Virus record (IMG/VR): IMGVR_UViG_2778261276_000005
Span: 1-15,970 of that record
Length of the DNA stretch: 15,970 bases
Reading direction: 5' to 3' (one strand)
Source of the DNA: a virus
Taxonomy: Duplodnaviria > Heunggongvirae > Uroviricota > Caudoviricetes
Both the position numbers and the translations under genes were made by a program. This document shows, piece by piece, positions 1-14,870 of this stretch (the stretch's first letter is position 1; the number at the start of each line of letters is the position of its first letter). The notes beneath the pieces are model-generated. The model was not told where the DNA came from and did not search any database. It saw only the letters and a program-made list of their open reading frames with translations.

Positions 1-209
1 GTGGCGGCCTCAGTCCGGAACAATTTGAAAACCAGAACCTCGCTTAGGCCTGTGTCCATATTACGTGGGTAGGATCAGTTATCCCTTCGTATCAATGACT
101 GACTCTTAAACGCAATGCTTTGGTTGCTGGCGTATCTGACAGCTTCTTCGGCGTGAAGGTCGTTGTGTAAGTATACTTCTTGGTTTATTTAGGCTATATA
201 AAACCATGA

Positions 210-1106
210 CTATGACTGGCTGTTTTCAGTAAGAGTCTTATCATCCAAAGAATTTATTCTAGAAATTCTTTTTAACTCATTAAGATAATCAACCTCGTTT
301 TCTAAGAACCAATGAAGAACTTTAGAGTTGCCAAGTAATTTATTAATATATGACTGGATTATAACGAATTTCAACATATCTGAACCATACTCGGTTTGAA
401 GTTTTTTCGTTTCTTCCGAAGTTGTTGCCATTTCTTGTTCCAGACGAAGTATGGTTTTTTTTATGTCCTTTTTATAGGGAGTGTTTTTCCCTTTATTTAC
501 TATCATCGATGACGGTGTTGCATCCAAGATGCTCATTGCAAATTTTTTACTATAATTATCAAAATTAATCATTGTACCGACTGCTTCAATTTGACGAATT
601 GGCTTCATTTTCCTCAAAACGTCAAATGTAGCCTTAGGTATAGGTTTATCAGAAAGTTTCGCAATTACACTTGGATCTATGCCGTTCATCACATTAGCTT
701 TATCTTTTATGGCATCAACAGATATGCCCAAAGCAGCACTAAGTTTTTCAATTGATACTTTTGCCAGAGACTTAATTATCATTCTATGTTCTTCAACTAC
801 ATTTATATGATTCACTTGTTTGTTAGGAGTGAAAGCATCATCTATGCTCGAAAGTATACATGGAGCTTTTTCTATATCTAAGTCTTTTAAAGCCTCAACC
901 CTTAAATGGCCATCAAGTATCTTAGTGACATCTTTATCTTTGTCATAGAATACTATTATTGGTTCAATAATACCCAAGCTTTCGATAGAGGTAACTATTT
1001 GATGATATTTATGGCTTCGCTTTACGTTTTCTAATAATTCCTTAGATGGAATTAACTTATTAGTTTCCAGGTAAATAAAATTTTTGCCAAAACGTATCTG
1101 AATCAT
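210..1106 (-). CDS. ParB/Srx-fold protein (ParB N-terminal domain-like), paralog A
   Basis: 298-aa ORF; motif ILDGHLRVEAL resembles ParB box II / DGQHR-type arginine motif; ATG overlaps stop of the upstream gene (ATGA at 1103-1106); AGAGG ribosome-binding site about 8 nt upstream; AT-rich codon usage shared with the neighbours. Confidence 0.6.
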   Translation of the reverse strand: MIQIRFGKNFIYLETNKLIPSKELLENVKRSHKYHQIVTSIESLGIIEPIIVFYDKDKDVTKILDGHLRVEALKDLDIEKAPCILSSIDDAFTPNKQVNHINVVEEHRMIIKSLAKVSIEKLSAALGISVDAIKDKANVMNGIDPSVIAKLSDKPIPKATFDVLRKMKPIRQIEAVGTMINFDNYSKKFAMSILDATPSSMIVNKGKNTPYKKDIKKTILRLEQEMATTSEETKKLQTEYGSDMLKFVIIQSYINKLLGNSKVLHWFLENEVDYLNELKRISRINSLDDKTLTENSQS

Positions 1107-1999
1107 TTTGATACCTCTTTGTTTACTGGGTTTAATATCTGAGATGGTAGTTCTGAAAGATTCTCTTGTTCAAGTATATTTTGAAAGCTTTTATTCATCA
1201 TTATGATGTTAAAAATCTCATTTATTATTAGTAGATTGGTTTTTATAAATTTCGAGTTGTTATAAACAGATTTATGTTCAGCGATACTATTTTCATAAAG
1301 CTCAATCAACTCCTCTGCAGTCATCCTTTTTGATGGTTTGTGATAATAAAATCCGGCTGCTTTTGCACCTTTATTCCCAACTGTTCTTTGATTTAGAATG
1401 TATTTTATCTTTATAATGTCCCGACTTTTTATTAATTTTTTATCATATGCTTCGGTAAGAATATCTTGTGCTTCCTCAGTTTCACATCTTGCAAATTGCA
1501 CTGCGAGATACAGAGGCAAATTACCCCGTTCGACTGCTGAGAGAAGTTTATGCTCTCCCTTATCAAGAAGCATATTAATACTGCTCACCCAGTTCGATGA
1601 ATATCCAGTAATCTCACTTATTTCGGAGTCTGAAAGTCCTCTGATTTTCATGTCTTTAATCACCTGTAATAACTCATTAGAACGTGGTCTTCTCCTTGCA
1701 ATGTTTTCAACTAAACTCATAACGTAAGCATCTTCTTCTGATACATCTCTTATAATTGCTGGAATAATAGTTTCACCTAATGCAACAAGAGCCTCTATTC
1801 TCCCTTGACCACAAATTAAAGCATATTTGAAATCGTCTTCATCAATAGTTCTTACGCTTATAGGCTTGCTTAATCCTCTTTTTTTTATGCTTTCCTTTAT
1901 TTCTTCATGCACTACCTTATTTCTTGTTCGTGGGTTAAGAAATTTTATTTTTGCAATCTCAATTTGAATTATTGGGAATTCATTTTTTTCAGGCAGCAT
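1103..1999 (-). CDS. ParB/Srx-fold protein (ParB N-terminal domain-like), paralog B
   Basis: 298-aa ORF; LICGQGRIEAL (box II-like G-x-x-R-x-x-A) and SLVENIARRRP (ParB box III-like) motifs; start overlaps the recombinase stop (1989-1999); GAGGGA ribosome-binding site 5 nt upstream. Confidence 0.65.
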   Translation of the reverse strand: MLPEKNEFPIIQIEIAKIKFLNPRTRNKVVHEEIKESIKKRGLSKPISVRTIDEDDFKYALICGQGRIEALVALGETIIPAIIRDVSEEDAYVMSLVENIARRRPRSNELLQVIKDMKIRGLSDSEISEITGYSSNWVSSINMLLDKGEHKLLSAVERGNLPLYLAVQFARCETEEAQDILTEAYDKKLIKSRDIIKIKYILNQRTVGNKGAKAAGFYYHKPSKRMTAEELIELYENSIAEHKSVYNNSKFIKTNLLIINEIFNIIMMNKSFQNILEQENLSELPSQILNPVNKEVSK

Positions 2000-3545
2000 A
2001 TAGTTCCCTCACTTTCATGCGAGTAATAATTTGTAGAAATTTATCAAGATTATCAAATCTATAGAGATCTAACCGAATGTTGTTTGTTTCCATCATACAC
2101 ATTTTACTATATTCGTTTTCAATCTTTGGTATGATATAAAAATCAAGAGGTGAAATATTTTGTGAATTCATTCGTATAACAATTGTTATGTCTGCTTTCT
2201 GTGAGTTATCAAACCGGACTTTCCATCTAAGTTTACCTGATTTCATATGTATGCATTTAGTAACAAGGACGGAAATTAAAAACTCATCATTGATGTAAAG
2301 CATTGGGTAATATTTATACTCGTCTATATGACAGTTACTTTTTAATATTTCGCCCTTAAAATCCTCAATTATCTCTGAGTAAAATGATCTTAGTGCTTCA
2401 TTTATTTGGAGATAGCTGTAATCATGTTCTGGCTTATAACCAATCAAAGTATATGCTCTTAAAAGACCACCAAATCGGGTTCTATAAACAGAAGATGAAG
2501 GGCCTGTATCATCTTCATCAATGATAAAGCCTGATAGTTTTCCATTAGATTCTAATTTTTCTTTTAGCTTTTCTAATAGATCTTCATTAGTCAAATGAAT
2601 GGATCGGAGCTGAATTATTTCTTGAGCTTTATTATATTTTTTCTTTGAAATAATTGGTTTATATGCCTTGTCACATCTAATCCATTCATGTTTGGGGTTT
2701 TTTACAAGCCTACTTTTTAGTTTAGATGAGGTTTTGTTATATATGTTGTTTCCAATATATTTTTCATTTGTCAAAATTTGATGTATTTTTGCACGAGTCC
2801 ATGATGTTCCATTTTCTGCAGGTATGCTCTGTTCATTTAATCTCTCAGCAATAATGAATTCTGGGACGTTACTATCTATAAAGAGATCATAGATTCTATT
2901 TACAATTTTTATTTCATTTTTTGGTCCCGGAATTAATATTACCCTATCTGTTTGAATACTCTTTCTTTTGCGGAAATTCAATATTTCTTTAGCTATGCCA
3001 TTTTCGTCTACTAAAAGACGTCTCAGCCCATAACCAGCCATACCGCCTTGATGATAACCAAGCTTTATTAAATTTACTTGCCCTATAAATACCTTTTCAG
3101 ATAGATTCCTGCTGTGATATGCAGCACTTGATCTTTTTATATTCAGTATAACAGAGGACTCTAAAGGGAAATCTTTAGTGGGTATAGGTTCGGAACAATA
3201 TATAAGATCTACACCATTTCTTTCAAATAGAAAGGAATAATATGCAGCTTCATCACTATTTTGAAAACGACCAAAACGGCTCACATCATAAAATAATACA
3301 GCCTGTATATCTATTTTCTTTTGTTCTACATCGCTAAGTAACTGCTGCAAAGAATGCCTGCCTACGATACTGACTCCGCTCTTACCTGCATCATCGTAGG
3401 TATAAGCGATTTCCATATTGTTCTTTTCAGCATAATCTTTGATATATTCAGACTGATTATGTAAAGAATATTGCTGATGGTCGGTAGACATCCTCAAGTA
3501 CTGTGCGACCCTAACTCTATGATTTTTTTCATTTCCGCTAGCCAT
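1989..3545 (-). CDS. Large serine recombinase (resolvase/invertase-type catalytic domain plus long C-terminal recombinase extension)
   Basis: N-terminal motif YLRMSTDHQ with the catalytic Ser, typical of serine recombinases; about 518 aa from the ATG at 3545 (the ORF track begins at a TTG at 3551); GAGG 8 nt upstream of that ATG. Confidence 0.85.
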   Translation of the reverse strand: MASGNEKNHRVRVAQYLRMSTDHQQYSLHNQSEYIKDYAEKNNMEIAYTYDDAGKSGVSIVGRHSLQQLLSDVEQKKIDIQAVLFYDVSRFGRFQNSDEAAYYSFLFERNGVDLIYCSEPIPTKDFPLESSVILNIKRSSAAYHSRNLSEKVFIGQVNLIKLGYHQGGMAGYGLRRLLVDENGIAKEILNFRKRKSIQTDRVILIPGPKNEIKIVNRIYDLFIDSNVPEFIIAERLNEQSIPAENGTSWTRAKIHQILTNEKYIGNNIYNKTSSKLKSRLVKNPKHEWIRCDKAYKPIISKKKYNKAQEIIQLRSIHLTNEDLLEKLKEKLESNGKLSGFIIDEDDTGPSSSVYRTRFGGLLRAYTLIGYKPEHDYSYLQINEALRSFYSEIIEDFKGEILKSNCHIDEYKYYPMLYINDEFLISVLVTKCIHMKSGKLRWKVRFDNSQKADITIVIRMNSQNISPLDFYIIPKIENEYSKMCMMETNNIRLDLYRFDNLDKFLQIITRMKVRELYAA

Positions 3546-3827
3546 GCACAAAACCTCATGGATGATTCAATACAATGTAGAGGATAAAATTGATCAAATT
3601 TTAACCGAATTCAACTGTTTTATCATTGATTAGAGCGAATTTGGTAGTTCTTCGAGGTGTATGATAATCGAGAAGAGATGTGAATTATTTAGCTGATATG
3701 ACCGACAGCTTTCGTTATGTGGCCTCAAGGTACCCATTTGTAAATGGCTATGCTTAGTCCACATAGGTTAATGGTGTGATCATTAATTCTTCAAATAAAT
3801 CAAGATAGTTAACCCATCATGGAAGAG

Positions 3828-5057
3828 TTATGCGGCAATAACTTTGTATTTTTGAGACGAAACATAGTCACTCCACCATTGCATGAGAACCACACGTTCT
3901 GTGAGATACTCTGCACGATTGTAGGCTGCAATTATTTCATCTTTTTTCGAGTGGGCAAGGGCGGCTTCTAAGACATCAGTTCTAAACTTGCCACACTCCT
4001 CAGCCGCCGTTCTAGCGATTGATCGCATACCATGAGCTACAAGCTCACCTCCGAAGCCCATACGGATTATAGCCGCATTAGCTGTTTGTTCATGCATGTG
4101 ATTGAGTGGAGCTTTGATACTGGGAAAAACCCACTCTCTATGCCCGCTGATGGCTTTCATTGAATCCAAGACTCGCAAAGATTCTTTGCTCAGTGGAACT
4201 TTGTGAGGCTTCTTCATTTTCATAAACTCCGCCGGGATGTTCCACATGCTGGTTTCTATATCAATATCTGACCATCTTGTGCGAACAGCTTCACCAGGGC
4301 GAACCCATGTGAGAAGTTGCCACTCAATCAGTAGCCTTGTTTCTAAACGGATAGAAGCATTGTTTAGAGCAACCAGGAAGCGGGGGAGTTCGGAAGGGGG
4401 TAATGCTGGCATATTCTGTTTTTTTGGCTTGCTGAACCGTTGCCCCAGGTTGTCAGCCGGATTGAATTCTATGAGTTCTTCTGTTGCTGCATAGCGGAAA
4501 ATTTCATTCAGGCGGGATATGACGCGGCGAAGTGTTTCAAGGACACCTCGTTTTTCTATGGGGTCTAAATGCTGTTTAAGCATTTTAGGGCGAATCTCCT
4601 TAATGGGGGTATCACCCAACGTTGGAAAGATATTTCTCTCTAGGCTTCGCCAGATGTCGTTAGCATGATCCTGGGAGATGCCTGACGTTTTGACTTTCTC
4701 ATCAAGCCACTTCTTGGCTACTGCTTGAAATGTATGTTCCGTTGCATCCTTAAGGGCATTGGCTTTGTGGGTGTTATGAACTTGTGGGTCTATACCATTT
4801 GCAAGCAACGACAAGTACTCATCACGTAAAGCTCGTGCCTTCGCAAGTGTAAGGTGAGGATAGGTTCCTAAGCTCACCTTAGTTCGCTTTTTGGTCACAG
4901 GCACTGCATATCTGAAATACCAATTTTTCTTTCCTCCCTTCGCTAAGGGGGCGATTCGCAGGAGCAAACCATCGCCGTCAAAAAGGTTAACCTCTTTCTC
5001 GGCAGGTTTGGTGCTTTTGATTTCAGTGTCAGTGAGCTTCTTAGCGATTTTTGCCAT
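3828..5057 (-). CDS. P4-family tyrosine integrase
   Basis: Arm-binding N-terminus (KNWYFRY), C-terminal catalytic region with HGMRSIARTAAEE ... LAHS ... AYNRAEY (R/H/Y catalytic residues); the ORF track extends to 5201, but the ATG at 5057 (MAKIAKKL...) has a GAGGG ribosome-binding site 8 nt upstream, giving about 410 aa. Confidence 0.9.
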   Translation of the reverse strand: MAKIAKKLTDTEIKSTKPAEKEVNLFDGDGLLLRIAPLAKGGKKNWYFRYAVPVTKKRTKVSLGTYPHLTLAKARALRDEYLSLLANGIDPQVHNTHKANALKDATEHTFQAVAKKWLDEKVKTSGISQDHANDIWRSLERNIFPTLGDTPIKEIRPKMLKQHLDPIEKRGVLETLRRVISRLNEIFRYAATEELIEFNPADNLGQRFSKPKKQNMPALPPSELPRFLVALNNASIRLETRLLIEWQLLTWVRPGEAVRTRWSDIDIETSMWNIPAEFMKMKKPHKVPLSKESLRVLDSMKAISGHREWVFPSIKAPLNHMHEQTANAAIIRMGFGGELVAHGMRSIARTAAEECGKFRTDVLEAALAHSKKDEIIAAYNRAEYLTERVVLMQWWSDYVSSQKYKVIAA

Positions 5058-5100
5058 GTTTGGGACCCTCATGTTTTGGACCCTTTGTGTTGGGTCCCAA
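5058..5100 (-). promoter_or_regulatory. Cluster of GGGACCC-type repeats just upstream of the integrase start (possible regulator or integrase binding sites)
   Basis: GTTTGGGACCC (5058-5068), GTTTTGGACCC (5073-5083) and the inverted copy TTGGGTCCC (5090-5098) within 45 bp. Confidence 0.3.
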
Positions 5101-5155
5101 AAAGGGTGCCATAACGAGTAGATTCTAGCAATTCTCGGTAGACTACTATAGACGT

Positions 5156-5189
5156 AAAAAAGCCCGCAAGGCTGGTTCCATGCGGGCTT
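5156..5189 (-). terminator. Rho-independent terminator, minus strand, just downstream of the ssrA 3'-end fragment
   Basis: Perfect 9-bp inverted repeat AAGCCCGCA / TGCGGGCTT (5160-5168 / 5181-5189) followed on the minus strand by a run of T (plus-strand A run 5156-5161). Confidence 0.6.
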
Positions 5190-5223
5190 GATAGACTTCA
5201 CTGAACTTCAATATATCAAAAAT

Positions 5224-5254
5224 TGGTGGAGCTGGCGGGAGTTGAACCCGCGTC
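5224..5254 (-). repeat. ssrA: 31-nt fragment identical to the 3' end of tmRNA (ssrA); attachment-site repeat, not a complete gene
   Basis: Minus-strand sequence GACGCGGGTTCAACTCCCGCCAGCTCCACCA matches the acceptor/T-arm 3' terminus of enterobacterial tmRNA as I recall it; similarity stops abruptly at 5255 and no tmRNA body follows. Confidence 0.8.
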
Positions 5255-5379
5255 AAAATTTATATAATCTTTTGTAAAATATACGTTTTTTCTATTGTTT
5301 TTGATCCGCGTATACTTCGCGTACACTTTGCCATTTGAACTTAAACATGCTGCCGTCGCTACATCATGACATGTTATTT

Positions 5380-6081
5380 TTACTTCTCATTTTCAAAGTC
5401 ATCACGAATGTTAATTAGATCTGTAATCAAAGCGCCAACTTTAGTTGAAGGATTTATCGAACCGTCTTTTTTGGCGGCATCTTCGACTCTTTTAGCATTG
5501 ATTAATGCCGTATCGAGCCGATCTTGCAATTTATTAAATACACCTGATGCCTTTTTCTCATAATCTGGCATGTATTTTTTTAACTCAGCTAGCATTTGTG
5601 CGCCTTCACTTTTGCCTTTCTGAGGTGAAAATGATTTTCGGGGGTATCCAAAATGTAGTATCAGCCAGTACTCGAAACATGGTATGGAAGTTATAGCAAC
5701 AAAAATCCCTTTTGGATTTAAGGAATTAATCCTGCTAAGAGCTTCATCATAGTTAGGGTGAGCGTCTCTATCAAAGACACAATAAACCTTATCATAAGGG
5801 TCGCTCCTTTTTTTTTCCGTATTATATTTTTCTTTTGCCCAAGATACCACATTCATAGGGCTTGAGCCGCACTCTCCAGAAATCTCAACTATGCTTGCCG
5901 TGCTTATACGGCAATGTTTTATAAAATCTGTAAAATATGCGGGCTCAGTCTTCTCTCCCTCACAGACGATAAGAATTTTCTTCATTTGAGCTCGTGCTTT
6001 ACTAACTCGTTTGAATTCATTATTACGCCGAGCCTTTCTTTTTTTGAACAGATCTTCGCTTCCCATTAATATCTCTCCCAT
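5380..6081 (-). CDS. RloB-like (AbiLii-family, TOPRIM/OLD-type) protein
   Basis: Motifs ILIVCEGEKTEPAYF, VFDRDAH and CFEYWLILHF characteristic of the RloB family; overlaps the upstream ATPase gene by 16 nt; an alternative ATG at 6066 (TAATG overlap, GGAG 8 nt upstream) would give 228 aa. Confidence 0.7.
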   Translation of the reverse strand: MGEILMGSEDLFKKRKARRNNEFKRVSKARAQMKKILIVCEGEKTEPAYFTDFIKHCRISTASIVEISGECGSSPMNVVSWAKEKYNTEKKRSDPYDKVYCVFDRDAHPNYDEALSRINSLNPKGIFVAITSIPCFEYWLILHFGYPRKSFSPQKGKSEGAQMLAELKKYMPDYEKKASGVFNKLQDRLDTALINAKRVEDAAKKDGSINPSTKVGALITDLINIRDDFENEK

Positions 6082-7331
6082 TTCCCAATGAGTGGTAAAG
6101 CCCCATATCTACCGTCAAGATAAGAAGCTTCTAAATTCTCCCTTCCTTTTCTTGGACTAAAATCCGTAAGTGGGAAAAGATTTGTTTGCTTTGAATTGTC
6201 TTTTTCTACAAACCAAATCTGATCTCGTCTGAAAACATCTTGATTTAAAATAGACGTCTCATGAGTTGTAAAGATTAACTGGGCACCATTCTTATTGATA
6301 TTTTTATCGTGAAATAAACCTACAATAAACTCAACTAATTTGGGGTGTAAGTTATCATTTAATTCATCAATAAACAGGATGTTTCCTGTCTCGAGTGAAT
6401 GTGATAAGGGACCCGCGAAACTAAAGATTTTTCTAGTTCCATGCGATTCATCTTTTAAATCGAATGGAATTGGCTCTCCATCCTCATTATTATGAAGTGT
6501 TTTAATGACATATTCTTCCTTGCCTTGCATATTCTTAATCACTAGTTCCTTGATGGCTGCAGGCATATCATCAGGAAGAGCATTGGGATTGAATTTTTCT
6601 TTTGTTACATGAATGTCATCAATACCTACATCGGCAGCTTTTAAAAAATTGAGAATCTCATCTTTCTTATCATTTAAGCATTGCTTTGCACTGTAATCAC
6701 TATCCCAACCTGTTAATTCAGTAAATTTAACTTTGTAATAAAACCAATCGTATACAGGTTTTAGTTGTACACTGTTTAATTGTACCGCTGTAGAAAGAAA
6801 GAGCGCATTAGGCCTAGTTGATTTCAACCATGTTTGTTTTTCTCCTGTCAACGATGGCCCCAACTCCCATTCATGGGTTTGTTTTTCTTCATCCCATAGA
6901 CGTAAAAACCATTTTTGTGGTCTGCCTTTGGGGAATGCAAATAACCATTCGTCGTGAATAAAATCTTCTGTTGCAGAAAAACCATACTGGTATCTGATGC
7001 CTTCGGAAATAAAGTTAATTTCAAATTCAGATGGTTGATTAATCTTCTTTGAGTCTAGTCTAAAAGGCGTGATATCAAGTTTATCACCACTTTTATAACC
7101 TGTAGCAGACCGGACAATAAGTTCAGCCATAGTTGTAATAGCGTTAATAATGTTTGATTTTCCGGCAGCATTAGGGCCATAAATCACAGCACTTTTAAGC
7201 AATTCAAGAGATTTAGGTTCATCAATACTGAACAGATTATTAGGCAAATCGTTAAGTTTTGATGCAACTAAACTCAGTGTTTGTTTCTCTGAAATAGATT
7301 TATAGTTTTGTACTGTAAACTCAATCAACAT
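6066..7331 (-). CDS. AAA/ABC-type ATPase (AbiLi-like, AAA_21/AAA_15-type)
   Basis: Walker A GPNAAGKS near the N-terminus, Walker B LFIDELNDNLH near the C-terminus, 421 aa; AT-rich; first gene of a two-gene operon. Confidence 0.75.
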   Translation of the reverse strand: MLIEFTVQNYKSISEKQTLSLVASKLNDLPNNLFSIDEPKSLELLKSAVIYGPNAAGKSNIINAITTMAELIVRSATGYKSGDKLDITPFRLDSKKINQPSEFEINFISEGIRYQYGFSATEDFIHDEWLFAFPKGRPQKWFLRLWDEEKQTHEWELGPSLTGEKQTWLKSTRPNALFLSTAVQLNSVQLKPVYDWFYYKVKFTELTGWDSDYSAKQCLNDKKDEILNFLKAADVGIDDIHVTKEKFNPNALPDDMPAAIKELVIKNMQGKEEYVIKTLHNNEDGEPIPFDLKDESHGTRKIFSFAGPLSHSLETGNILFIDELNDNLHPKLVEFIVGLFHDKNINKNGAQLIFTTHETSILNQDVFRRDQIWFVEKDNSKQTNLFPLTDFSPRKGRENLEASYLDGRYGALPLIGKWERY

Positions 7332-7521
7332 AATTTATACCCTTTTAACTTCCCATAGCTTAAAAACCACTAAAAGTGATTTTATAGCACAAATTTGACA
7401 AAAAACGTCAAATCTTTGCATTTAATGCACACTAAAACCATTGTACACTATCCTCATCATCCTGCTAACATTCTTGTAAGCTTTACTGTTTTGCGAAGGG
7501 GGGCTAGTGCTATCGGGCGTT

Positions 7522-8718
7522 TTACTTCTCAATTTTCATGTTCTCCGGATTTTTTGATACTTGGTCCTTACAAGCTGTCTTGCCATCATAGTCTACGAGA
7601 TACGAACCATAATGCCTGAAAAGCATTTCCGGCCCTTTATGCCCCATTTGAGCTGCAAGCCAAAACAGATTTGCTCCTCGGCTGATATGGCTGGTGGCGA
7701 ATGTATGCCTAGTTTGATATGGATTTCTGTATCGAATACCTGCTTTCCGTAATGTTGGCACCCATGCTTTTTTCCTGATTGCATCAGCACTTGCCCAAGG
7801 CTTATTGGTCTTTGGGTCTTCAAAGACAGTAGCATCCTTCATGAATGTAAATGGCTTCTGATTTATCAGCGCCAACATTGCCTCTTCTGTCAGTTCAACT
7901 TTACGAGTACCTGCTTTTGTCTTTGTCCCTTTGATAACACCGACAACACTTGCGCTCTGGACATGGGCAGTTTTTCCAACAAAGTCGATATCACGCCATC
8001 GAAGGGCACATAATTCAGAACTACGCAGGCCTGTATGTATAGCGAACCGGAACAGATTCTCCCATTGTTTGTTTCCGGCTGCTGCTAGTAATGCATCAAC
8101 TTCTGTTGGTGATAGCGGATCAACCACGTAGCTGCTTTCTACTTCTGACTTATCACTTTGGTAGCGCGAAGCAGTTACCAACGATACGGGGTTAATTTGA
8201 AGTACCCCATCGGTTACGGCTTCATCAAGTGCTGACCGCAGGAAAGATAACTGGTTGCGAATTGTTTTTAAGGTCGTTTTCTGGCTTTGAATCCACGCTT
8301 TCAGGATTGCTGGTGTTAATTCACTTGCAGGGCAAATGTGGAGTGAGGCTAACGCACTACGGCATTTTTTATAACCACCAATCGTAGATGGTGAAAGTTT
8401 TCTCGTTTCGCAGATTTCAAGGTATTCGTCCAGGTACATTTTTACCGTTTTGCCTGCAGCAGCATTACCAAAAATTTTCAAACGAGCAGAACGGGGAAAA
8501 TATTCCGCATAAATGAATGTTCCCCTTTCGATCTTATTATGAATTTCGCCGAGTGTGCGCTCGGCGTATTTAATGTTCTTTGGTGTTACTTCCAGATTGG
8601 AAAGTGGCTCACGACATTTAACTCCTTTGTAGGTGAAAGTTATATTGATCGTTTCTCCCTGACGGTGTTTTCTGATTGTTACGCCGCGCGGTAGTTTGAG
8701 CAGTTTTGTCTGGCCCAT
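7522..8718 (-). CDS. Lambda-family tyrosine integrase
   Basis: 398 aa; C-terminal catalytic region RHTFATSHISRGANLFWLAAQMGHKGPEMLFRHYGSY and a C-terminus ending ...KIEK as in lambda Int; GAGG ribosome-binding site 7 nt upstream; 5' end overlaps xis. Confidence 0.9.
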   Translation of the reverse strand: MGQTKLLKLPRGVTIRKHRQGETINITFTYKGVKCREPLSNLEVTPKNIKYAERTLGEIHNKIERGTFIYAEYFPRSARLKIFGNAAAGKTVKMYLDEYLEICETRKLSPSTIGGYKKCRSALASLHICPASELTPAILKAWIQSQKTTLKTIRNQLSFLRSALDEAVTDGVLQINPVSLVTASRYQSDKSEVESSYVVDPLSPTEVDALLAAAGNKQWENLFRFAIHTGLRSSELCALRWRDIDFVGKTAHVQSASVVGVIKGTKTKAGTRKVELTEEAMLALINQKPFTFMKDATVFEDPKTNKPWASADAIRKKAWVPTLRKAGIRYRNPYQTRHTFATSHISRGANLFWLAAQMGHKGPEMLFRHYGSYLVDYDGKTACKDQVSKNPENMKIEK

Positions 8719-8885
8719 TTTGCAACCTCACTAAGATCAATCCACCTCTCCTTAACGCCTTCAACCTTTAAAACCTGAACACCTTCACGCCAAACACCGC
8801 GCTGTACACGTTTGTTTATTGCTTCAGGAGTTTCGCCAGTTTCTTTGCAATAAGTTGAGATAGGAACGCAATCGAGGTTCAGCAT
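8679..8885 (-). CDS. Excisionase (Xis-like winged-helix DNA-binding protein)
   Basis: Small basic protein directly upstream of and overlapping int; W/R-rich pattern (VQRGVWREG...ERWIDLSEVAKW) like lambda Xis; ATG at 8885 has GGAG 6 nt upstream (the ORF track begins at a GTG at 8897). Confidence 0.65.
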   Translation of the reverse strand: MLNLDCVPISTYCKETGETPEAINKRVQRGVWREGVQVLKVEGVKERWIDLSEVAKWARQNCSNYRAA

Positions 8886-8944
8886 ATGTTTCTCCACTTA
8901 GCCCGCTGCACACGGGCAGTAATATCAAATTCCAGTCCTGATAA

Positions 8945-9160
8945 TTAATTTTGTTCTCTGGTTGCTACCTGTTTTATTGGCCTGATGCTGTCCAGGAGCA
9001 GACGGCGACGCATGTTTGGCGCACCCCAACGGTAACCAGTCTTTTTGTCGTAGGATTCACAACGTCCGGCAACCCAGGACGTTTCAGTGGAATGTAATTT
9101 CATCCGCTTTTCACCGTCTCGGGTGATAACAATTCCTGTATGAGTTTTTATCACGCTCAT
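8945..9160 (-). CDS. Hypothetical small phage protein
   Basis: 71-aa ORF; ATG overlaps the stop of the upstream gene (ATGA at 9157-9160), i.e. translationally coupled within the leftward operon. Confidence 0.45.
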   Translation of the reverse strand: MSVIKTHTGIVITRDGEKRMKLHSTETSWVAGRCESYDKKTGYRWGAPNMRRRLLLDSIRPIKQVATREQN

Positions 9161-9519
9161 TTCTTAGTCTCTGGTGCTTTCGGCATTACTGCCCAGTGAG
9201 TGATATTGACGTTTTCAAGGTCCCCGACCTGAAATGTCCACTGCCATTCTCCGGTTTCTTTTTGCCCCCATGTGTACCAGAGAGAACGCCAGCCAATCAG
9301 CCAGCCTTCTCCATTAGCATCAAATAACAGAACACTTTCATTTGCTGGCGGCAGTTCAGCTGACACTGGTATTACTTTGTTTTCCAGAGCCGCACATTTA
9401 GCTTCAAGCGCATCGAATTTACGTACCAGATACTCAGCATTTGTTTCATTCACTTTCAGATCTCGCGGTACACATTTCCCGCGAAGAACCCCTTCCATTT
9501 CGAAAACATTCATGCGCAT
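9157..9519 (-). CDS. Hypothetical phage protein (Trp-rich C-terminus; YfdS-like by size and position)
   Basis: 120-aa ORF; GGAG 8 nt upstream of the ATG; overlaps the stop of the upstream HD-domain gene by 10 nt. Confidence 0.55.
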   Translation of the reverse strand: MRMNVFEMEGVLRGKCVPRDLKVNETNAEYLVRKFDALEAKCAALENKVIPVSAELPPANESVLLFDANGEGWLIGWRSLWYTWGQKETGEWQWTFQVGDLENVNITHWAVMPKAPETKK

Positions 9520-10046
9520 TTGCGTAACTCCGATAATTCGTTAAAGCGTTCCATAAACATCCCGTAGGCATGGCCTGGAGCCAGTGGAATCACGTTGAAC
9601 ATCTCTGTTGCCGGGATACCTTCCAGCACAGGCCAGAAAGAGCCATCATCAAGCCCGAGATCGCGGCGTTCGGTTGCCAGCATGATGAGATCGGCATATT
9701 TCACGGGGGTACTCATAACCGGGGGTAACCCGTATTTCTCACGGATTACGGCGTCTATTTTTTCTTCCATCCGTTTATAGTCAGGAAGAAGGCGTTTCAG
9801 TGGCGCCGGGATGTCCTGGCAATACGCTTCTGTTGCATCATGCATTAACGCTTCAAAAGCAAATTCCTGCGGTACCAGTTGGCTGCAAAGCACCGCATGT
9901 TGGGCGACGCTGTAGAAATGTGAAAGATGTCCTGCAAAGCGACAGATATTTGAAAGAGAAACCGCGATATCGTTAATAACGATGTCGTCTTTATTTATCC
10001 TGTCATAATAAAAATGCTTCCCGGAAAAAGTTTTAATAAATGACAT
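9510..10046 (-). CDS. HD-domain metal-dependent phosphohydrolase (YfdR-like putative 5'-deoxynucleotidase)
   Basis: H...HD motif pattern (SVAQHAVLCSQL, LMHDATEAYCQDIP); the ORF track starts at a GTG at 10073, but the ATG at 10046 has GGAG 8 nt upstream and gives 178 aa. Confidence 0.75.
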   Translation of the reverse strand: MSFIKTFSGKHFYYDRINKDDIVINDIAVSLSNICRFAGHLSHFYSVAQHAVLCSQLVPQEFAFEALMHDATEAYCQDIPAPLKRLLPDYKRMEEKIDAVIREKYGLPPVMSTPVKYADLIMLATERRDLGLDDGSFWPVLEGIPATEMFNVIPLAPGHAYGMFMERFNELSELRKCA

Positions 10047-10139
10047 TTTGTTCTCCACGTATATGCGCTGCACCGCGCTGAATTCTGGTAAAAGGAAGCC
10101 CTCACCATCCGGCGATTATTGAGTCAATTACGTTTCCAT

Positions 10140-10161
10140 AAATGCCCCCGCAGGGGCATTT
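10140..10161 (-). terminator. Perfect stem-loop right after the stop of the upstream gene (weak terminator or stability hairpin)
   Basis: AAATGCCCC-CGCA-GGGGCATTT, 9-bp stem with a 4-nt loop, 13 nt downstream of the stop at 10174; only a short U-tract. Confidence 0.35.
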
Positions 10162-10173
10162 GCAGTAATGAAA

Positions 10174-10998
10174 TCAGGCGGTGAAAGTACCAATAAAGGT
10201 TTCTACTTTGCTGTCCTTGAATTTCTCAACAAGCAGATCACGAAATTCGTTAGCCATTTCTTCCTGCACTGCTTCCAGCTGAATAATGCGCAGAACCAGT
10301 ACAGGACGATCGCCAGTGATAATGCTGAGGCGTAATTTAAACGGACGTTCTTTCAGGCCTTCAAACGGAACGCATTTAAATTCAAATGCCACAGGCATAA
10401 TATCTTTGGTCTTCGCTTCGACAGACTCCATCAGGGAGCGTTTGCCGCTGAAGTCATTGTCTTCAAAATCAGCGGTCTGGTTTGCTTCAATCGTGATTTT
10501 ACGGACTGCCGCAGCCGCTTTTGTTGCCTGAATGGCATCACCATTAGCATCAAAGCCCACAAGGTAGTCGGCCCAGTCTTCGATCCATTCTGCCAGTGAC
10601 TTCTGGGAGTTACGCTCGCCGTTAACAGACAACAGAGCAGAGAACGGTGCTGTCTTTTTCAGTTTGAGAGTGGCAGTGTTATCTGCGTGACCTGGCTCAT
10701 CAATAGTACCCAGGTTAAGCACACTGACGGCACGCATATTATCGGCATCGATAAAGCAGCGGGTGCCTTCATCTGCAAGATCTTTAGAATAACGAGTAAA
10801 GTCATCGATGCTGGCAGTGGAAAGCGCACCACGGAAACGGAAACGATTTAAATTAAATTTTTCCAGATCATGAATGCGGAAATTCTCAGGCAATGCCACA
10901 GCATCGGCACCAATCTTACTGATAATTTCATTAACACCCTGAGCAGAAATAAGGGCATGGATTTGATTAATTGCGGTTGCGTCTAAGTTCTGAGACAT
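10174..10998 (-). CDS. Phage protein of unknown function (YfdQ-like, 274 aa)
   Basis: Long ORF with GAGGA ribosome-binding site 6 nt upstream of the ATG; size and neighbourhood match the yfdQ-type gene of KplE1/CPS-53-like prophages (from memory, unverified). Confidence 0.65.
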
Positions 10999-11063
10999 AA
11001 TAAGTCCTCACTATATAAAAATATTCAGTGATGAGAGAAATAATCAGTTTATTAAAAACGATA

Positions 11064-11426
11064 TTAATGACCTGCTGCGCGGAGTTTTCCGTCAGGTTCA
11101 CCGGCAAGAGTCAGTAATTGTCCCTGGTCTTCCTGCAGAATAGTCAGGCGACCACCGCGATTGACATACATCGGCGTTTCGGTGGTGTCTTCTTCGGAAA
11201 TTTTCCCGCGGTTAGTCGGGCGAACATATGAGAGTTTGTGTTTGATTTTCACACGGTTCTCATCAAATGGTTCGATTTCCAGGTTGAGTGAGACCTTACC
11301 TTTGGTTTTCGTGTTCATCACACCGGAAGCGACTTCACTGAGAACTGCGCCGATTTTTGTTTCAAATACGCCGCCGTCCAGCTCCCCGATAAATGCCTGC
11401 ACATCAGTACTGCGTTCGCTAGCCAT
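11064..11426 (-). CDS. Hypothetical phage protein, first gene of the leftward early operon
   Basis: ORF track gives 197 aa from 11657, but the N-terminal 77 codons run through the GC-rich hairpin region; the ATG at 11426 (MASERSTDV...) has GAGGAG 7 nt upstream and gives 120 aa. Confidence 0.55.
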   Translation of the reverse strand: MASERSTDVQAFIGELDGGVFETKIGAVLSEVASGVMNTKTKGKVSLNLEIEPFDENRVKIKHKLSYVRPTNRGKISEEDTTETPMYVNRGGRLTILQEDQGQLLTLAGEPDGKLRAAGH

Positions 11427-11562
11427 TTTGTTGCTCCTCATCATATCGACCCTGCAAGGCCGATTAGTTTCTCCACAAAACAGAGAAGAACACCTGCGGT
11501 GGCAGCCGCCCGGATGGATTGGGTTATGAGCCCGTCGTCCGGTGATGCTCTTCTCTGTTTTG

Positions 11563-11609
11563 TAAAAAGAGCGGTACCAGCCGGAAGCAAGTGTACAAAC
11601 TGGTACCGC
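11563..11609 (-). terminator. Strong intrinsic terminator on the minus strand inside the leader of the leftward operon
   Basis: Perfect 10-bp inverted repeat GCGGTACCAG / CTGGTACCGC (11571-11580 / 11600-11609) followed on the minus strand by TCTTTTTA. Confidence 0.6.
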
Positions 11610-12020
11610 CAAAGCAGTGGCTGTTGTGGTGGGGTTGTCACTCAGGCGTATGGTCAACCTGACAATCCGGTGTCCTCAACGGGGAAAGAGTAACCCCGCC
11701 ATACTTACCGCCGCGCCATTTCGCGGATGACCACAACGCTGAGAGCACTTAGCCAGTTACGGCACCACACTTTGTCGCGGCTCCATAAATGCCCTCATCG
11801 TTGCACCCTGGTCTCTTCCCAGGCGTCAAACCGGATCGCCACGCTGGTTAGGCGTCTTATCAGCATCATCATTGACTTGCACATTCCGGCTACCTGGTTT
11901 GTTTGCCCTAGCAAGGAGTGGATTGTCCCCTTTAACGTCCCCAGACCGCTAACGACGCATGTGCCATACGCCGTGTTACAACCAAATTTTGTTAGTACCT
12001 TGTTTGTTGGTCTGGAAAGA

Positions 12021-13178: not shown

Positions 13179-13722
13179 GCATCACTGGAAAGTGGAAAAA
13201 CAGCCTGAGTGGTACGTGAAAGCTGTCAGAAAAACTATCGCGGCGTTGCCGGGGGGGTACGCTGAAGCTGCTGAGTGGCTGGATGTAACAGAGAACGCTT
13301 TATTCAACCGCCTTCGTGCAGATGGCGATCAGATTTTCCCGCTGGGATGGGCAATGATTTTACAGCGCGCTGCTGGCACTCACTACATTGCGGATGCTGT
13401 CGCACAGTCTGCTGGTGGGGTGTTTGTATCGCTTCCTGAAATTGAGGAAGTAGAGAACGCAGATATAAACCAGCGCCTGCTGGAAGTCATCGAACAGATC
13501 GGGAGTTACTCAAAGCAGATTCGTTCGGCAATCGAAGATGGGGTAGTGGAGCCACACGAGCAGACAGCAATTAATGATGAATTGTATCTGTCAATTTCGA
13601 AGCTCCAGGAGCATGCGGCACTGGTCTACAAAATTTTCTGCGCTCCAGAAAAGAGTGACGCCCGCGAGTGTGCAGCTCCGGGCGTCGTGGCGTTTTGTGT
13701 CTGTGGAGAAACTAACGCATGA
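13171..13722 (+). CDS. cII-like / phage regulatory protein (putative)
   Basis: 183 aa, GTG start with GGAGG 6 nt upstream, overlapping the cro stop by 8 nt; position and acidic, helix-rich sequence suggest a CII/CP76-type regulator, but the family assignment is uncertain. Confidence 0.5.
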   Translation: MGKHHWKVEKQPEWYVKAVRKTIAALPGGYAEAAEWLDVTENALFNRLRADGDQIFPLGWAMILQRAAGTHYIADAVAQSAGGVFVSLPEIEEVENADINQRLLEVIEQIGSYSKQIRSAIEDGVVEPHEQTAINDELYLSISKLQEHAALVYKIFCAPEKSDARECAAPGVVAFCVCGETNA

Positions 13723-14870
13723 ACAGTTTAACGGCAAATAACCGTTTGTCGCAACAGCTGGTGGTCAGTGTCGCTGCACACCTGTTGTTACGGCATGAAT
13801 GCAGATTACCAAATCACCTGGCTGTAAGTAACCACAGAGAACTTTACCTGACTGTGGGGGGCGAGTTGTGCAGGAACTTAACCGCTGGTTTCGTGACGGA
13901 AGAGGACTTTATGTTCATGTTATTCGTTGGGAGCCAGAAACACAGCGCGTTATCTATCTTCGCAAAGACTACCCGCATGAGTGCTTTAGTCCTTTGTGGA
14001 AATTCAGGCGTGATTTTGTTGAGTGTGAAGGACCACCAGCACATTGATTCTGCCATTCCGGGACGTTACACTGTTCAGGCACCTTATAAAACGGGTGCCG
14101 GGCGTGGAAACCCGGAATTCACCAAAGCGCACAACCGCGCTCTTGCGGTTTTTTTGTGTCATGAGCAGCATTACGCCCAAATTATGGTGGGGCGTGCAGG
14201 GCCAACTTCGGTTGGGCCGGGTTCTTTGGTGACCGGTATTTCCACCCCTGTACGTCTCACCACCAATAAGGTCGTGGAAAGCCTTGGTGGTGAGTTATTA
14301 AAAATCACCAAAGAGGCTGCCATCATGGCTACGATCCCAACCCTCACTCAACCTGAAATTGCCATCGTTGATGGTCAGGCTGTTACTTCATCTCTGGCTG
14401 TTGCCAACTTCTTCTCCAAACGTCATGACGATGTACTGAAAAAGATCCGCACGCTTGAATGCTCCGCATCATTCACTGCCCGCAATTTTTCGGTGAGTGA
14501 TTACACCGATTGCACAGGCCGCAAACTACCTTGCTATCAAATAACCCGCGACGGCTTTGCGTTTCTTGCTATGGGGTTCACGGGTAAACGTGCTGCCCAG
14601 TTCAAAGAGGCATACATCAATGCCTTTAACCAGATGGAGAAACAGCTTTCAAAGCCCGCTGTACCGAGCGACGTTGCACATAACGCCAGCGTTCTCTGTT
14701 CCTACATTTCATCAATTCATCAGGTCTGGCTGCAGCAGCTTTATCCTATGTTGGCAAAAGCCGAATCCCCGCTGGCTGTTAGCTTGTATGACTATATTAA
14801 TGATGCTTCGGCACTGGCCTGCCTCATAAATTTGTCACTGAACCCTTCAGAGGTAAGGGGGCGCAAATGA
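13719..14870 (+). CDS. Rha-family phage regulatory protein (Rha domain in the C-terminal half; N-terminal about 200 aa of unclear assignment)
   Basis: Frame open for 383 codons with ATG overlapping the upstream stop (ATGA at 13719-13722); Rha-type motif IAIVDGQAVTSSLAVANFFSKRHDDVLKKIRTL begins just after an internal ATG at 14325, which has AAGAGG 9 nt upstream and may be the true start. Confidence 0.55.
   Translation: MNSLTANNRLSQQLVVSVAAHLLLRHECRLPNHLAVSNHRELYLTVGGELCRNLTAGFVTEEDFMFMLFVGSQKHSALSIFAKTTRMSALVLCGNSGVILLSVKDHQHIDSAIPGRYTVQAPYKTGAGRGNPEFTKAHNRALAVFLCHEQHYAQIMVGRAGPTSVGPGSLVTGISTPVRLTTNKVVESLGGELLKITKEAAIMATIPTLTQPEIAIVDGQAVTSSLAVANFFSKRHDDVLKKIRTLECSASFTARNFSVSDYTDCTGRKLPCYQITRDGFAFLAMGFTGKRAAQFKEAYINAFNQMEKQLSKPAVPSDVAHNASVLCSYISSIHQVWLQQLYPMLAKAESPLAVSLYDYINDASALACLINLSLNPSEVRGRK

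What the first reader, a model, noticed from the sequence alone, without database searches (positions are those of the whole stretch)
5380..7331. Two-gene AAA ATPase + RloB-like module (AbiL/OLD-type abortive-infection candidate) wedged between two mobile elements
A 421-aa ATPase (Walker A GPNAAGKS, Walker B LFIDEL) is followed, with 16-nt overlap, by a 233-aa protein carrying RloB-type motifs (ILIVCEGEKTE, VFDRDAH, CFEYWLILHF). From established knowledge, an ATPase + RloB pairing is the architecture of AbiLi/AbiLii and resembles split OLD-family or PARIS-like systems. The module is AT-rich and lies exactly between the ssrA att repeat (5224-5254) and the integrase end of the lambdoid prophage (7522). 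This is a junction where cargo accumulates, so it is probably an anti-phage system acquired independently of both neighbours.
Basis: partly seen in the sequence, partly recalled or inferred. Interest (0 to 1): 0.6.

Follow-up and report, generated by a model that had tools for sequence, protein, structure and literature searches.

The report
Prophage-borne AbiL (RloA/RloB) defence pair
This is an ordinary member of the long-known AbiL family of two-gene anti-phage systems (an ABC ATPase plus an RloB nuclease-like protein), carried as swappable cargo at the integrase end of an E. coli prophage inserted in the ssrA gene, not an independently acquired island.

Summary
Two minus-strand genes encode a 421-aa ABC ATPase (6066-7331) and an RloB protein (5380-6066/6081). 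They score AbiLi 4e-101 and AbiLii 3e-29 in PADLOC, and AAA_21 and RloB at about 1e-39 in Pfam. They are not PARIS (no AriB/DUF4435 hit) and not Gabija/OLD.

The claim that the module was acquired independently of both neighbours is not supported. The pair lies inside the lambdoid prophage, between int and the prophage's attR (the 31-bp ssrA 3' repeat). All 15 of 5,426 complete E. coli genomes that carry the module have it joined to this same int, whatever lies to the left. About 400 other genomes with this int carry other cargo in the same slot: DarTG, a cassette whose methylase matches PD-Lambda-5_B, and several unknown cassettes. The swap boundaries are the ssrA core and the last ~15 codons of int.

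The mechanism is inferred and was not tested. The ATPase probably acts as sensor and regulator of a toxic TOPRIM-like RloB nuclease, giving abortive infection. The AbiL mechanism is unresolved in the literature.

Verdict: new member of a known kind, low-to-moderate interest. The uncharacterised cassettes in the same slot are the more promising lead.

The parts
6066..7331 (-). abiLi / rloA-type ABC ATPase, 421 aa. Motifs: Walker A G52-K58-S59, Q-loop Q115, signature S296-x-G298-T299, Walker B D322-E323, H-loop H357.
   Evidence: ORF. Pfam AAA_21 1.3e-38 and AAA_15 9.3e-09. PADLOC AbiLi 4.2e-101. All motif residues are invariant in 36 homologues. AF2 model pLDDT 84.6, with best PDB matches Rad50 head 7e-12, PtuA, SMC heads and Ts OLD.
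5380..6081 (-). abiLii / rloB, 233 aa from the first ATG. The probable true start is the ATG at 6066 (228 aa), overlapping the ATPase stop as TAATG. It has TOPRIM-like E36 and D99-x-D101 (228-aa numbering), further invariant E41, H103, E132 and H138, and a basic, disordered N-terminal ~28 residues.
   Evidence: ORF. Pfam RloB 3.3e-39. PADLOC AbiLii 3.1e-29. RefSeq annotation of 228 aa. Junction sequence. Invariant columns. AF2 model pLDDT 84.8 with beta1 29-35 and beta3 93-99 carrying the acidic residues.
7332..7521 (-). Intergenic region between the int stop and the abiLi start. It is part of the swapped cassette and holds one weak sigma-70-like candidate promoter (TTAGCA-17-TACAAT, 7468->7440).
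   Evidence: Sequence. Consensus scan, 9 of 12 matches, not enriched over shuffles. Not homologous to the same interval in E. coli 042.
5269..7566 (.). The exchangeable cargo cassette as delimited by homology breaks. It runs from 14 nt beyond the ssrA core to 45 nt inside the 3' end of int.
   Evidence: blastn of the window against 042: homologous at 76-5268 and 7567-11612 only. The 7567 break also appears against phage phiNP and in ~400 genomes. GC is 35.9%.
5224..5254 (-). 31-nt copy of the ssrA (tmRNA) 3' end. It serves as the attR core of the lambdoid prophage and, at the same time, the att junction of the P4-type island to the left.
   Evidence: Exact match. Partial, sub-threshold tmRNA Rfam hit. 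The intact ssrA with an identical 31 nt lies ~47.7 kb to the right in EC71. Homology with EC1515, which has a different left island, starts exactly here at 5223. Positions 5224-5248 are identical to the published 25-bp attP of phiNP.
5255..5379 (.). attR-proximal phage arm between the ssrA core and the rloB stop. It contains a CCGCGTATACTTCGCGTAC element (~5306-5324), and counterparts (GCGG/GCGT..TTTTGCG) recur at the same distance from the core in every cassette type. These may be Int arm-type sites, which is an inference.
   Evidence: Side-by-side junction sequences of 10 loci.
7522..8718 (-). Prophage tyrosine integrase, 398 aa. Its last ~15 residues are cassette-specific, and the catalytic region (...MGHKGPEMLFRHYGSYL) is conserved.
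   Evidence: Pfam Arm-DNA-bind_2 and Phage_integrase. C-terminal tails compared across cassettes. 412 of 5,426 E. coli genomes carry this int.

Best explanation
The two genes are an AbiL-type (RloA/RloB) anti-phage module carried as accessory cargo of a lambdoid prophage integrated in ssrA. They occupy an exchangeable slot between the phage integrase gene and the phage's attR.

Shown here:
(1) The family assignment of both proteins and their translationally coupled arrangement.
(2) Intact ABC-ATPase catalytic motifs, and TOPRIM-type acidic residues (E36, D99xD101) that are invariant across homologues.
(3) Location inside the prophage's direct repeats, constant linkage to this int, and replacement by other cargo (DarT + NADAR, a cassette whose methylase matches PD-Lambda-5_B, and unknown cassettes) in related prophages.
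(4) Recurrence of the same gene pair in other defence contexts: a Wadjet / type III RM island in Cellvibrio, the P2-like hotspot in Klebsiella phages, and the lysin-att end of a Lactococcus prophage.

Inferred, not shown:
The lysogen expresses the pair from its own promoter. The ABC ATPase (probably as an oligomer) holds the RloB nuclease inactive and acts as the infection sensor. On infection by a superinfecting phage, ATP-dependent conformational change releases or activates RloB. Its metal-dependent TOPRIM-like site then cuts an essential nucleic acid (tRNA or other RNA by analogy with PARIS AriB and P2 Old, or DNA by analogy with GajA). That stops growth and aborts the infection, protecting the lysogen population and the prophage.

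Cassette exchange most likely occurs by homologous recombination between related prophages, using the conserved int gene and the ssrA/att core as flanking homology.
For: Identity: Pfam AAA_21 1.3e-38 and RloB 3.3e-39. PADLOC AbiLi 4.2e-101 and AbiLii 3.1e-29. A Lactococcus prophage pair annotated as abortive phage resistance proteins hits the same two models and is 29.9% / 28% identical to the window pair, aligning over the DxD and EyWLxLHF motifs.

Catalytic competence: invariant Walker A, Q-loop, signature, Walker B and H-loop. Invariant E36, E41, D99, D101, H103, E132 and H138 in RloB. The acidic residues sit at the ends of beta1 and beta3 of a beta-alpha core. The ATPase fold matches Rad50, PtuA, SMC and OLD at E 7e-12 to 3e-10.

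Prophage cargo: intact ssrA plus a 31-nt repeat bracket a complete-looking lambdoid prophage in EC71. There is no other att copy. Homology with EC1515 begins exactly at the ssrA core although the left island differs. All 15 carriers have AbiLi contiguous with this int. Alternative cassettes occupy the same slot, including in strains where chromosomal glaH follows directly. The functional phage phiNP has the same attP, a related int and a cargo ATPase between them.

Defence association elsewhere.

Literature: AbiL confers abortive infection in Lactococcus, and the review lists AbiL as acting after transcription in Ceduovirus (PMC13064643). F. nucleatum AbiLii is toxic in E. coli (PMC3985639). 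AbiL is grouped with the ABC ATPase + TOPRIM systems (PMC11464382, PMC12409363).
Confidence: 0.8

Rival explanations
1. One reading: the pair is a separate mini-island that landed at the ssrA junction independently of both the prophage and the P4-type island.
For: It lies between two integrase-bearing elements, and its GC (35.9%) differs from the prophage's (47.2%). Tandem arrays of elements do form at ssrA.
Against: There is no third att copy delimiting it, and it has no integrase or other mobility gene of its own. 15 of 15 carriers have it fused to the same int. Its right boundary lies inside the int ORF and its left boundary is the ssrA core. The same slot is filled with other cargo in prophages that have no second element beside them. 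Phage phiNP carries cargo in the same place inside its genome record.
Confidence: 0.04
2. It is primarily a toxin-antitoxin or addiction module (RloB toxin, ATPase antitoxin) that stabilises the prophage end, rather than a dedicated anti-phage system.
For: F. nucleatum AbiLii is toxic in E. coli (PMC3985639). NetFlax places AAA ATPase / TOPRIM_OLD pairs, and an RloB-homologous node linked to the AAA ATPase node, in the type II TA network, and validated AAA-neutralised pairs (PMC10440598). The two genes are translationally coupled.
Against: It is not exclusive of defence, since PARIS is both. The pair recurs in defence islands and phage defence hotspots, and the slot's other identifiable occupants resemble defence systems. 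Lactococcal AbiL has a phage-resistance phenotype (PMC13064643). AbiLi gave no antitoxicity in the one published test.
Confidence: 0.1
3. It is a PARIS, Gabija or OLD system, or an accessory of a restriction-modification system like Campylobacter RloAB, which is embedded in type I hsd loci.
For: It has the ABC ATPase + TOPRIM-like architecture. AriA is the second-best PADLOC hit at 2e-37, and there are weak Old and ATPase-Toprim hits. One homologue is named RloA. In Cellvibrio the pair abuts a type III RM system. In EC71 the same prophage carries a type II RM at its other end.
Against: There is no AriB/DUF4435 hit for the second protein. The AriA hit comes from a 304-position model whose match mirrors the Pfam AAA_21 hit, and it is about 64 orders of magnitude weaker than the AbiLi hit. 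There is no fused TOPRIM and no UvrD helicase gene. There are no hsd or mod/res genes within the cassette or next to it in the window. AriA is absent from the top structural matches.
Confidence: 0.04

Closest known systems
AbiL (AbiLi/AbiLii) of Lactococcus lactis (Deng et al. 1999), as modelled in PADLOC and DefenseFinder
   Same: Two adjacent, co-directional genes with the ATPase first. Both proteins hit the AbiLi and AbiLii models (4.2e-101 and 3.1e-29). A lactococcal prophage pair hitting the same models aligns with the window pair over the whole ATPase (29.9%) and over the DxD / EyWLxLHF core of RloB. Both pairs are carried on mobile elements, at the end of a prophage.
   Different: Only about 30% identity to the lactococcal representative I could reach, and the founding pND861 proteins themselves were not compared. 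The host is a Gram-negative bacterium and the carrier is a lambdoid prophage rather than a plasmid. No phenotype is known for this pair.
RloA/RloB of Campylobacter jejuni type I RM loci (Miller 2005) and 'RloA' of Cellvibrio japonicus
   Same: The same Pfam RloB family and AAA_21 ATPase. The Cellvibrio RloA is 58% identical to the window ATPase and is followed by an RloB gene.
   Different: The pair here is not embedded in or adjacent to an hsd or RM operon; it is prophage cargo.
PARIS (AriA/AriB)
   Same: A split ABC ATPase + TOPRIM-type effector. It is often phage- or satellite-borne in hotspots, and it is the best mechanistic analogue: the ATPase sequesters a toxic nuclease and a phage trigger releases it (PMC11464382).
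   Different: The second protein is RloB, not DUF4435/AriB. AriA is not among the 50 best structural matches of the ATPase, and I saw no long coiled-coil insertion in the predicted secondary structure. The literature reports poor superposition of AbiLii on AriB (PMC13064643) and calls AbiL/RloAB structurally distinct from PARIS (PMC10802264). The trigger and substrate are unknown.
P2 Old / class 1-2 OLD nucleases and Gabija GajA
Prophage and satellite defence hotspots (P2/P4 hotspots, Rousset et al. 2022, PMC9122126)
   Same: A fixed position in a temperate phage genome, flanked by conserved genes, holding mutually exclusive cassettes that include identifiable defence-like genes.
   Different: A different phage family (lambdoid, ssrA-integrating) and a different position (int 3' end to attR). 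I found no paper describing this slot. That is a limited search, not proof of novelty.

Membership tests
AbiL (PADLOC/DefenseFinder sense) | AbiLi-type ABC ATPase (AAA_21/AAA_15) | tested here: met
   PADLOC AbiLi 4.2e-101; Pfam AAA_21 134 bits against a cut-off of 27.
AbiL (PADLOC/DefenseFinder sense) | AbiLii / RloB-family second protein | tested here: met
   PADLOC AbiLii 3.1e-29; Pfam RloB 135.5 bits against a cut-off of 31.5.
AbiL (PADLOC/DefenseFinder sense) | The two genes adjacent and co-directional, ATPase upstream | tested here: met
   Overlapping stop/start TAATG, or a 16-nt overlap from the first ATG. The same order is seen in Cellvibrio, Klebsiella and Lactococcus.
AbiL (founding lactococcal system) | Detectable homology of both proteins to lactococcal AbiLi/AbiLii | tested here: met
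   Compared with the L. cremoris prophage proPhi7 pair, which hits AbiLi 4.4e-76 and AbiLii 4.7e-18. ATPase 29.9% over 99% of the query, E 4e-38; RloB 28% over 101 aa, E 4e-06. The pND861 proteins themselves were not available.
AbiL (founding lactococcal system) | Abortive-infection phenotype requiring both genes | not testable with these tools
   Needs cloning and phage challenge.
ABC ATPase (Rad50/SMC-like, AAA_15/21 branch) | Walker A, Q-loop, signature, Walker B, H-loop and an ABC head fold | tested here: met
   Invariant K58, Q115, S296/G298, D322-E323 and H357. Foldseek Rad50 7e-12, PtuA 1.3e-11, SMC heads (first listed, human SMC1A head domain) 3.4e-11.
TOPRIM / OLD-type nuclease (for RloB) | Conserved Glu after beta1 and DxD after beta3 of a four-stranded beta-alpha core | tested here: met
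   E36, D99 and D101 are invariant in 46 sequences. The model has beta1 29-35, beta3 93-99 and beta4 122-128.
TOPRIM / OLD-type nuclease (for RloB) | Specific sequence or structure similarity to established TOPRIM/OLD domains | tested here: inconclusive
PARIS | AriB (DUF4435 TOPRIM) effector next to AriA | tested here: not met
   No AriB or DUF4435 hit for the second protein.
Gabija / class 1-2 OLD | ATPase and TOPRIM fused in one protein; GajB UvrD-like helicase partner for Gabija | tested here: not met
   The proteins are separate and the cassette has no helicase gene.
Prophage cargo (moron / defence hotspot) | Lies inside the prophage's att direct repeats | tested here: met
   The ssrA 31-nt repeat at 5224-5254 and the intact ssrA ~47.7 kb away bracket int, the AbiL pair and the phage genes in EC71. 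No further copy exists.
Prophage cargo (moron / defence hotspot) | Same position holds alternative, mutually exclusive cassettes in related prophages | tested here: met
   AbiL; AAA ATPase plus a PD-Lambda-5_B-like methylase; DarT + NADAR; three unknown cassette types; the phiNP ATPase.
Prophage cargo (moron / defence hotspot) | Cassette is excised and packaged with the phage | not testable with these tools
   Inferred only from phiNP, a functional phage with the same attP and architecture.

The most novel reading that the evidence does not exclude
Two readings are not excluded. (a) This RloA/RloB branch of AbiL, whose ATPase is unusually conserved (56-58% identity across distant Gammaproteobacteria), may work by a regulatory logic different from PARIS. 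The published absence of antitoxicity in trans and the structural distinctness from AriA/AriB would fit that, and the trigger and nuclease target would then be new. (b) The int-attR slot of ssrA-integrating lambdoid prophages (412 E. coli genomes) may be an unexploited defence hotspot. Its cassettes with no PADLOC hit (307 aa + DUF4325 + 209 aa; 271 aa + 127 aa; 259 aa) would then be new anti-phage systems.
Probability: 0.3. Interest if true: 0.55.

Novelty: new member of a known kind. Interest (0 to 1): 0.25.

Why it matters
On its own the finding adds little. AbiL has been known since 1999 and standard tools would call this locus. It has three practical values. First, it gives an E. coli-native, prophage-borne AbiL that could be studied with coliphage panels and E. 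coli genetics, which matters because the AbiL/RloAB mechanism is still unresolved in the papers I read. Second, it corrects the element map at this ssrA array: the cargo belongs to the phage, so lysogenic conversion would spread it. Third, it defines a sharply bounded exchange slot (ssrA core to int 3' end) present in about 8% of complete E. coli genomes, which can be mined for uncharacterised cassettes.

Tried and rejected
1. tmRNA/tRNA scan: ARAGORN finds no gene in the window. Only the 31-nt ssrA 3' fragment is present, so the intact ssrA had to be located in a complete genome.

2. Third att copy between int and abiLi: searched with the full 31-mer and a 15-mer core at up to 3 mismatches. 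Nothing relevant was found, so the separate mini-island idea was rejected.

3. Solved structures by sequence: nothing useful for either protein (FtsE at E 0.0097; apolipophorin noise).

5. PARIS, Gabija and Septu membership: considered because of weaker PADLOC hits (AriA, Old, PtuA, HEC-01A, PDC-M12A) and rejected for the lack of the cognate partner.

6. DNA-level search for the cassette in phages and plasmids: only a 68%-identical Klebsiella P2-like phage and short ATPase fragments. This module is not on known plasmids.

7. Promoter/terminator scan: one weak promoter candidate and no enrichment over shuffles. Not relied on.

8. Literature search for an E. coli AbiL experiment or for a description of this hotspot: none found.

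Full report
OBSERVATION. All the quoted motifs are present. RefSeq annotates the second protein as 228 aa, starting at the ATG at 6066. That ATG overlaps the ATPase stop codon by one base (TAATG). The homologues are 221-229 aa and do not cover the first five residues of the longer form. So the overlap is more likely 1 nt than 16 nt, and either way the genes are translationally coupled. The 31-nt sequence at 5224-5254 is an exact reverse-complement copy of the ssrA 3' end. The window contains no intact tmRNA or tRNA gene (partial Rfam hit). The cassette is AT-rich, at 35.9% GC against 47.2% for the prophage part.

WHAT THE PROTEINS ARE. In Pfam, the first protein hits AAA_21 at 1.3e-38 and AAA_15 at 9.3e-09, and the second hits RloB at 3.3e-39, all well above the curated cut-offs. 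In PADLOC they hit AbiLi at 4.2e-101 and AbiLii at 3.1e-29. The next-best ATPase hit is an AriA model at 2e-37. That model has 304 positions and its match (protein 48-363, profile 2-304) mirrors the Pfam AAA_21 hit, so I take it to be a generic AAA_21-type model. The second protein has no AriB or DUF4435 hit. NCBIfam has no specific model for either protein.

In an alignment of 36 ATPase homologues, every ABC catalytic element is invariant: Walker A G52/K58, Q115, signature S296-x-G298-T299, Walker B D322-E323 and H357. The AlphaFold model (pLDDT 84.6) matches Rad50 heads best (E 7e-12), followed by PtuA of Septu and retron Ec78, SMC heads and Thermus OLD. AriA is not among the first 50 hits.

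In an alignment of 46 RloB homologues, E36, E41, D99, D101, H103, E132 and H138 are invariant. In the model (pLDDT 84.8), E36 follows beta1 and D99-x-D101 follows beta3 of a beta-alpha core, which is the TOPRIM arrangement.

WHERE IT SITS. The window is E. coli. The 2.3-kb interval occurs at >=99.7% identity in 15 of 5,426 complete genomes, always chromosomal.

In strain EC71 the intact ssrA lies about 47.7 kb to the right. Reading from it, the order is a type II RM system, a GIY-YIG gene, lambdoid late genes, the early region, xis/int, abiLi, abiLii and then the 31-nt ssrA repeat. The pair is therefore inside the prophage's direct repeats. No other att-like copy exists in the window.

Four further results show that the pair belongs to the phage and not to the junction.

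(i) Strain EC1515 has a completely different island to the left (AlpA, YfjI, a Gabija-like pair and a TIR protein). Its homology to the window starts exactly at the ssrA core (5223) and runs through AbiL and int to 10157 at 98.9%.

(ii) All 15 carriers have abiLi contiguous with this int.

(iii) 412 genomes carry this int. In about 400 of them homology breaks between 7567 and 7607, inside the last codons of int, and other genes fill the interval down to the ssrA core. The occupants sampled were:
- E. coli 042: a 577-aa AAA_15/21 ATPase plus a Dam-type methylase that hits PD-Lambda-5_B at 5.8e-124.
- PSS-10: DarT plus a NADAR antitoxin.
- D5 and S88: a three-gene set with a DUF4325 STAS-like protein.
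- CFT073 and EC21Z-147: two hypothetical genes.
- S6: one hypothetical gene.
In S6, CFT073, S88 and EC21Z-147 no second element is present and chromosomal glaH follows directly.

(iv) Citrobacter phage phiNP is an experimentally functional temperate phage. Its published 25-bp attP equals window 5224-5248 (PMC6456863). Its int is 83% identical at the DNA level with the same 7567 breakpoint, and it carries a cargo ATPase between int and the att core within its genome record.

The int protein stays intact across all these swaps. The conserved sequence runs through the catalytic region (...MGHKGPEMLFRHYGSYL) and only the last ~15 residues are cassette-specific. On the att side every cassette differs immediately after the core, yet all share a GCGG/GCGT...TTTTGCG-like element 55-70 nt in. 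This may represent Int arm-type sites (inference).

I conclude that the slot is a phage-internal exchange site.

THE PAIR ELSEWHERE. The family is large: more than 7,500 ATPase hits and 1,700 RloB hits at E <= 1e-5. The ATPase is strikingly conserved, at 56-58% identity in distant Gammaproteobacteria. One homologue is named RloA, so this is the RloA/RloB pair.

The gene order is conserved and the contexts are defensive or phage-borne. In Cellvibrio japonicus the pair lies between a Wadjet system and a type III RM system. In Klebsiella it lies between gpA/DinI and the portal gene of P2-like prophages, and it is also present in the deposited Peduoviridae phage ST13-OXA48phi12.1. From my own knowledge of P2, that is the position where P2 carries old and tin. 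In Lactococcus prophage proPhi7 a pair annotated 'abortive phage resistance protein' follows the lysin gene at the prophage end. It hits the same AbiLi and AbiLii models and is 29.9% and 28% identical to the window pair.

HOW IT PROBABLY WORKS. Nothing here is experimental for this locus. From the literature:
- AbiL confers abortive infection in Lactococcus, and the review lists it as acting after transcription in Ceduovirus (PMC13064643).
- F. nucleatum AbiLii is toxic in E. coli, and AbiLi did not neutralise it in trans (PMC3985639).
- AbiL is classed with the ABC ATPase + TOPRIM systems: Old, Gabija, PARIS and MADS (PMC11464382, PMC12409363, bioRxiv 10.64898/2026.07.10.737580).
- Its mechanism is explicitly called unresolved and structurally distinct from PARIS (PMC10802264, PMC13064643).

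The best-supported model is therefore by analogy. An oligomeric ABC ATPase senses infection and controls a toxic, metal-dependent RloB nuclease, whose activity arrests the cell and aborts the infection. I put about 0.5 on that mechanistic outline, about 0.95 on the family assignment and about 0.9 on the prophage-cargo conclusion. The main caveat is the negative antitoxicity test in trans, which may mean that regulation needs co-translation or differs from PARIS.

COMPARISON AND NOVELTY. The locus meets every sequence-level criterion for AbiL that I could test. It fails the defining partner criteria for PARIS and for Gabija/OLD. RefSeq already annotates the two proteins as 'AAA family ATPase' and 'RloB family protein', and PADLOC models recognise them. 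So this is a new, unstudied member of a known kind in a typical setting, a prophage defence slot.

I found no paper describing this particular int-attR slot of ssrA lambdoid prophages. The principle is well established for P2 and P4 (PMC9122126, PMC13586616). The uncharacterised cassettes in the slot are a better discovery lead than the AbiL pair itself.

VERDICT. Interest: 0.25.

Noticed in passing
L008 3055-4943 (E. coli D5) and L010 3078-4948 (S88); L009 3745-4933 (CFT073) and L011 3740-4928 (EC21Z-147); L007 4141-4920 minus (S6): The same int-attR slot holds cassettes with no PADLOC hit and almost no Pfam hit: 307 aa + DUF4325 STAS-like 113 aa + 209 aa; 271 aa + 127 aa; and a single 259-aa protein. 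By position they are candidate new anti-phage systems.
   Followed up: partly
L003 5731-8443 (E. coli 042); L005 1087-2874 (phage phiNP): The 042 cassette is a 577-aa AAA_15/21 ATPase plus a Dam-type methylase that hits PD-Lambda-5_B at 5.8e-124. phiNP carries a related 595-aa ATPase alone in the same slot.
   Followed up: partly
window 5306-5324, and the equivalent positions 55-70 nt from the ssrA core in L002-L011: Although the cassettes are unrelated, each has a GCGG/GCGT...TTTTGCG-like element at the same distance from the att core. These may be Int arm-type or accessory-factor sites of attP.
   Followed up: no
window 14079-14155 (+) and 14180-14267 (+): Above-threshold Rfam hits to isrK (67.9 bits) and C4 antisense RNA (83.6 bits). 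They lie inside the mechanically listed + strand ORF 13719-14870, which carries Ash and Rha domains. I read this as a P1/P7-type immI-like antirepressor control module in this lambdoid prophage.
   Followed up: no
window 210-5201: The left-hand element is an AT-rich island (36.7% GC). It has a P4-type integrase abutting the ssrA repeat, a 520-aa large serine recombinase and two tandem ParB/RepB-like proteins. It is conserved in 042, EC71 and PSS-10, and its function is unknown.
   Followed up: partly
L004 31343-35199 (EC71, the other end of the same prophage, next to intact ssrA): The ssrA-proximal end of the prophage also carries cargo: a type II restriction endonuclease, a DNA cytosine methyltransferase and a LEM-3-like GIY-YIG protein.
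   Followed up: no
L002 516-6421 (EC1515 left island): An alternative island at the same ssrA array carries a DUF4238 protein, a TIR-domain protein and a Gabija-like pair (ATP-dependent nuclease + UvrD helicase). The ssrA locus stacks defence cargo from several elements.
   Followed up: no
Plasmid hits H117-H135 (3.7-6.5 kb E. coli, Klebsiella and Enterobacter plasmids, plus one 13.8-kb Klebsiella aerogenes plasmid): Many of these mostly very small enterobacterial plasmids encode an ATPase 28-31% identical over the full length of the window ATPase; one is annotated 'abortive infection protein'. I did not check whether an RloB partner is present.
   Followed up: no
window 5156-5233 (-): Sub-threshold Rfam hit to the Salmonella sRNA IsrM (42 bits against a gathering score of 376). 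It spans the ssrA 3' end and the downstream terminator-like hairpin at 5161-5173. It probably reflects shared ssrA-flanking sequence rather than an IsrM gene.
   Followed up: no
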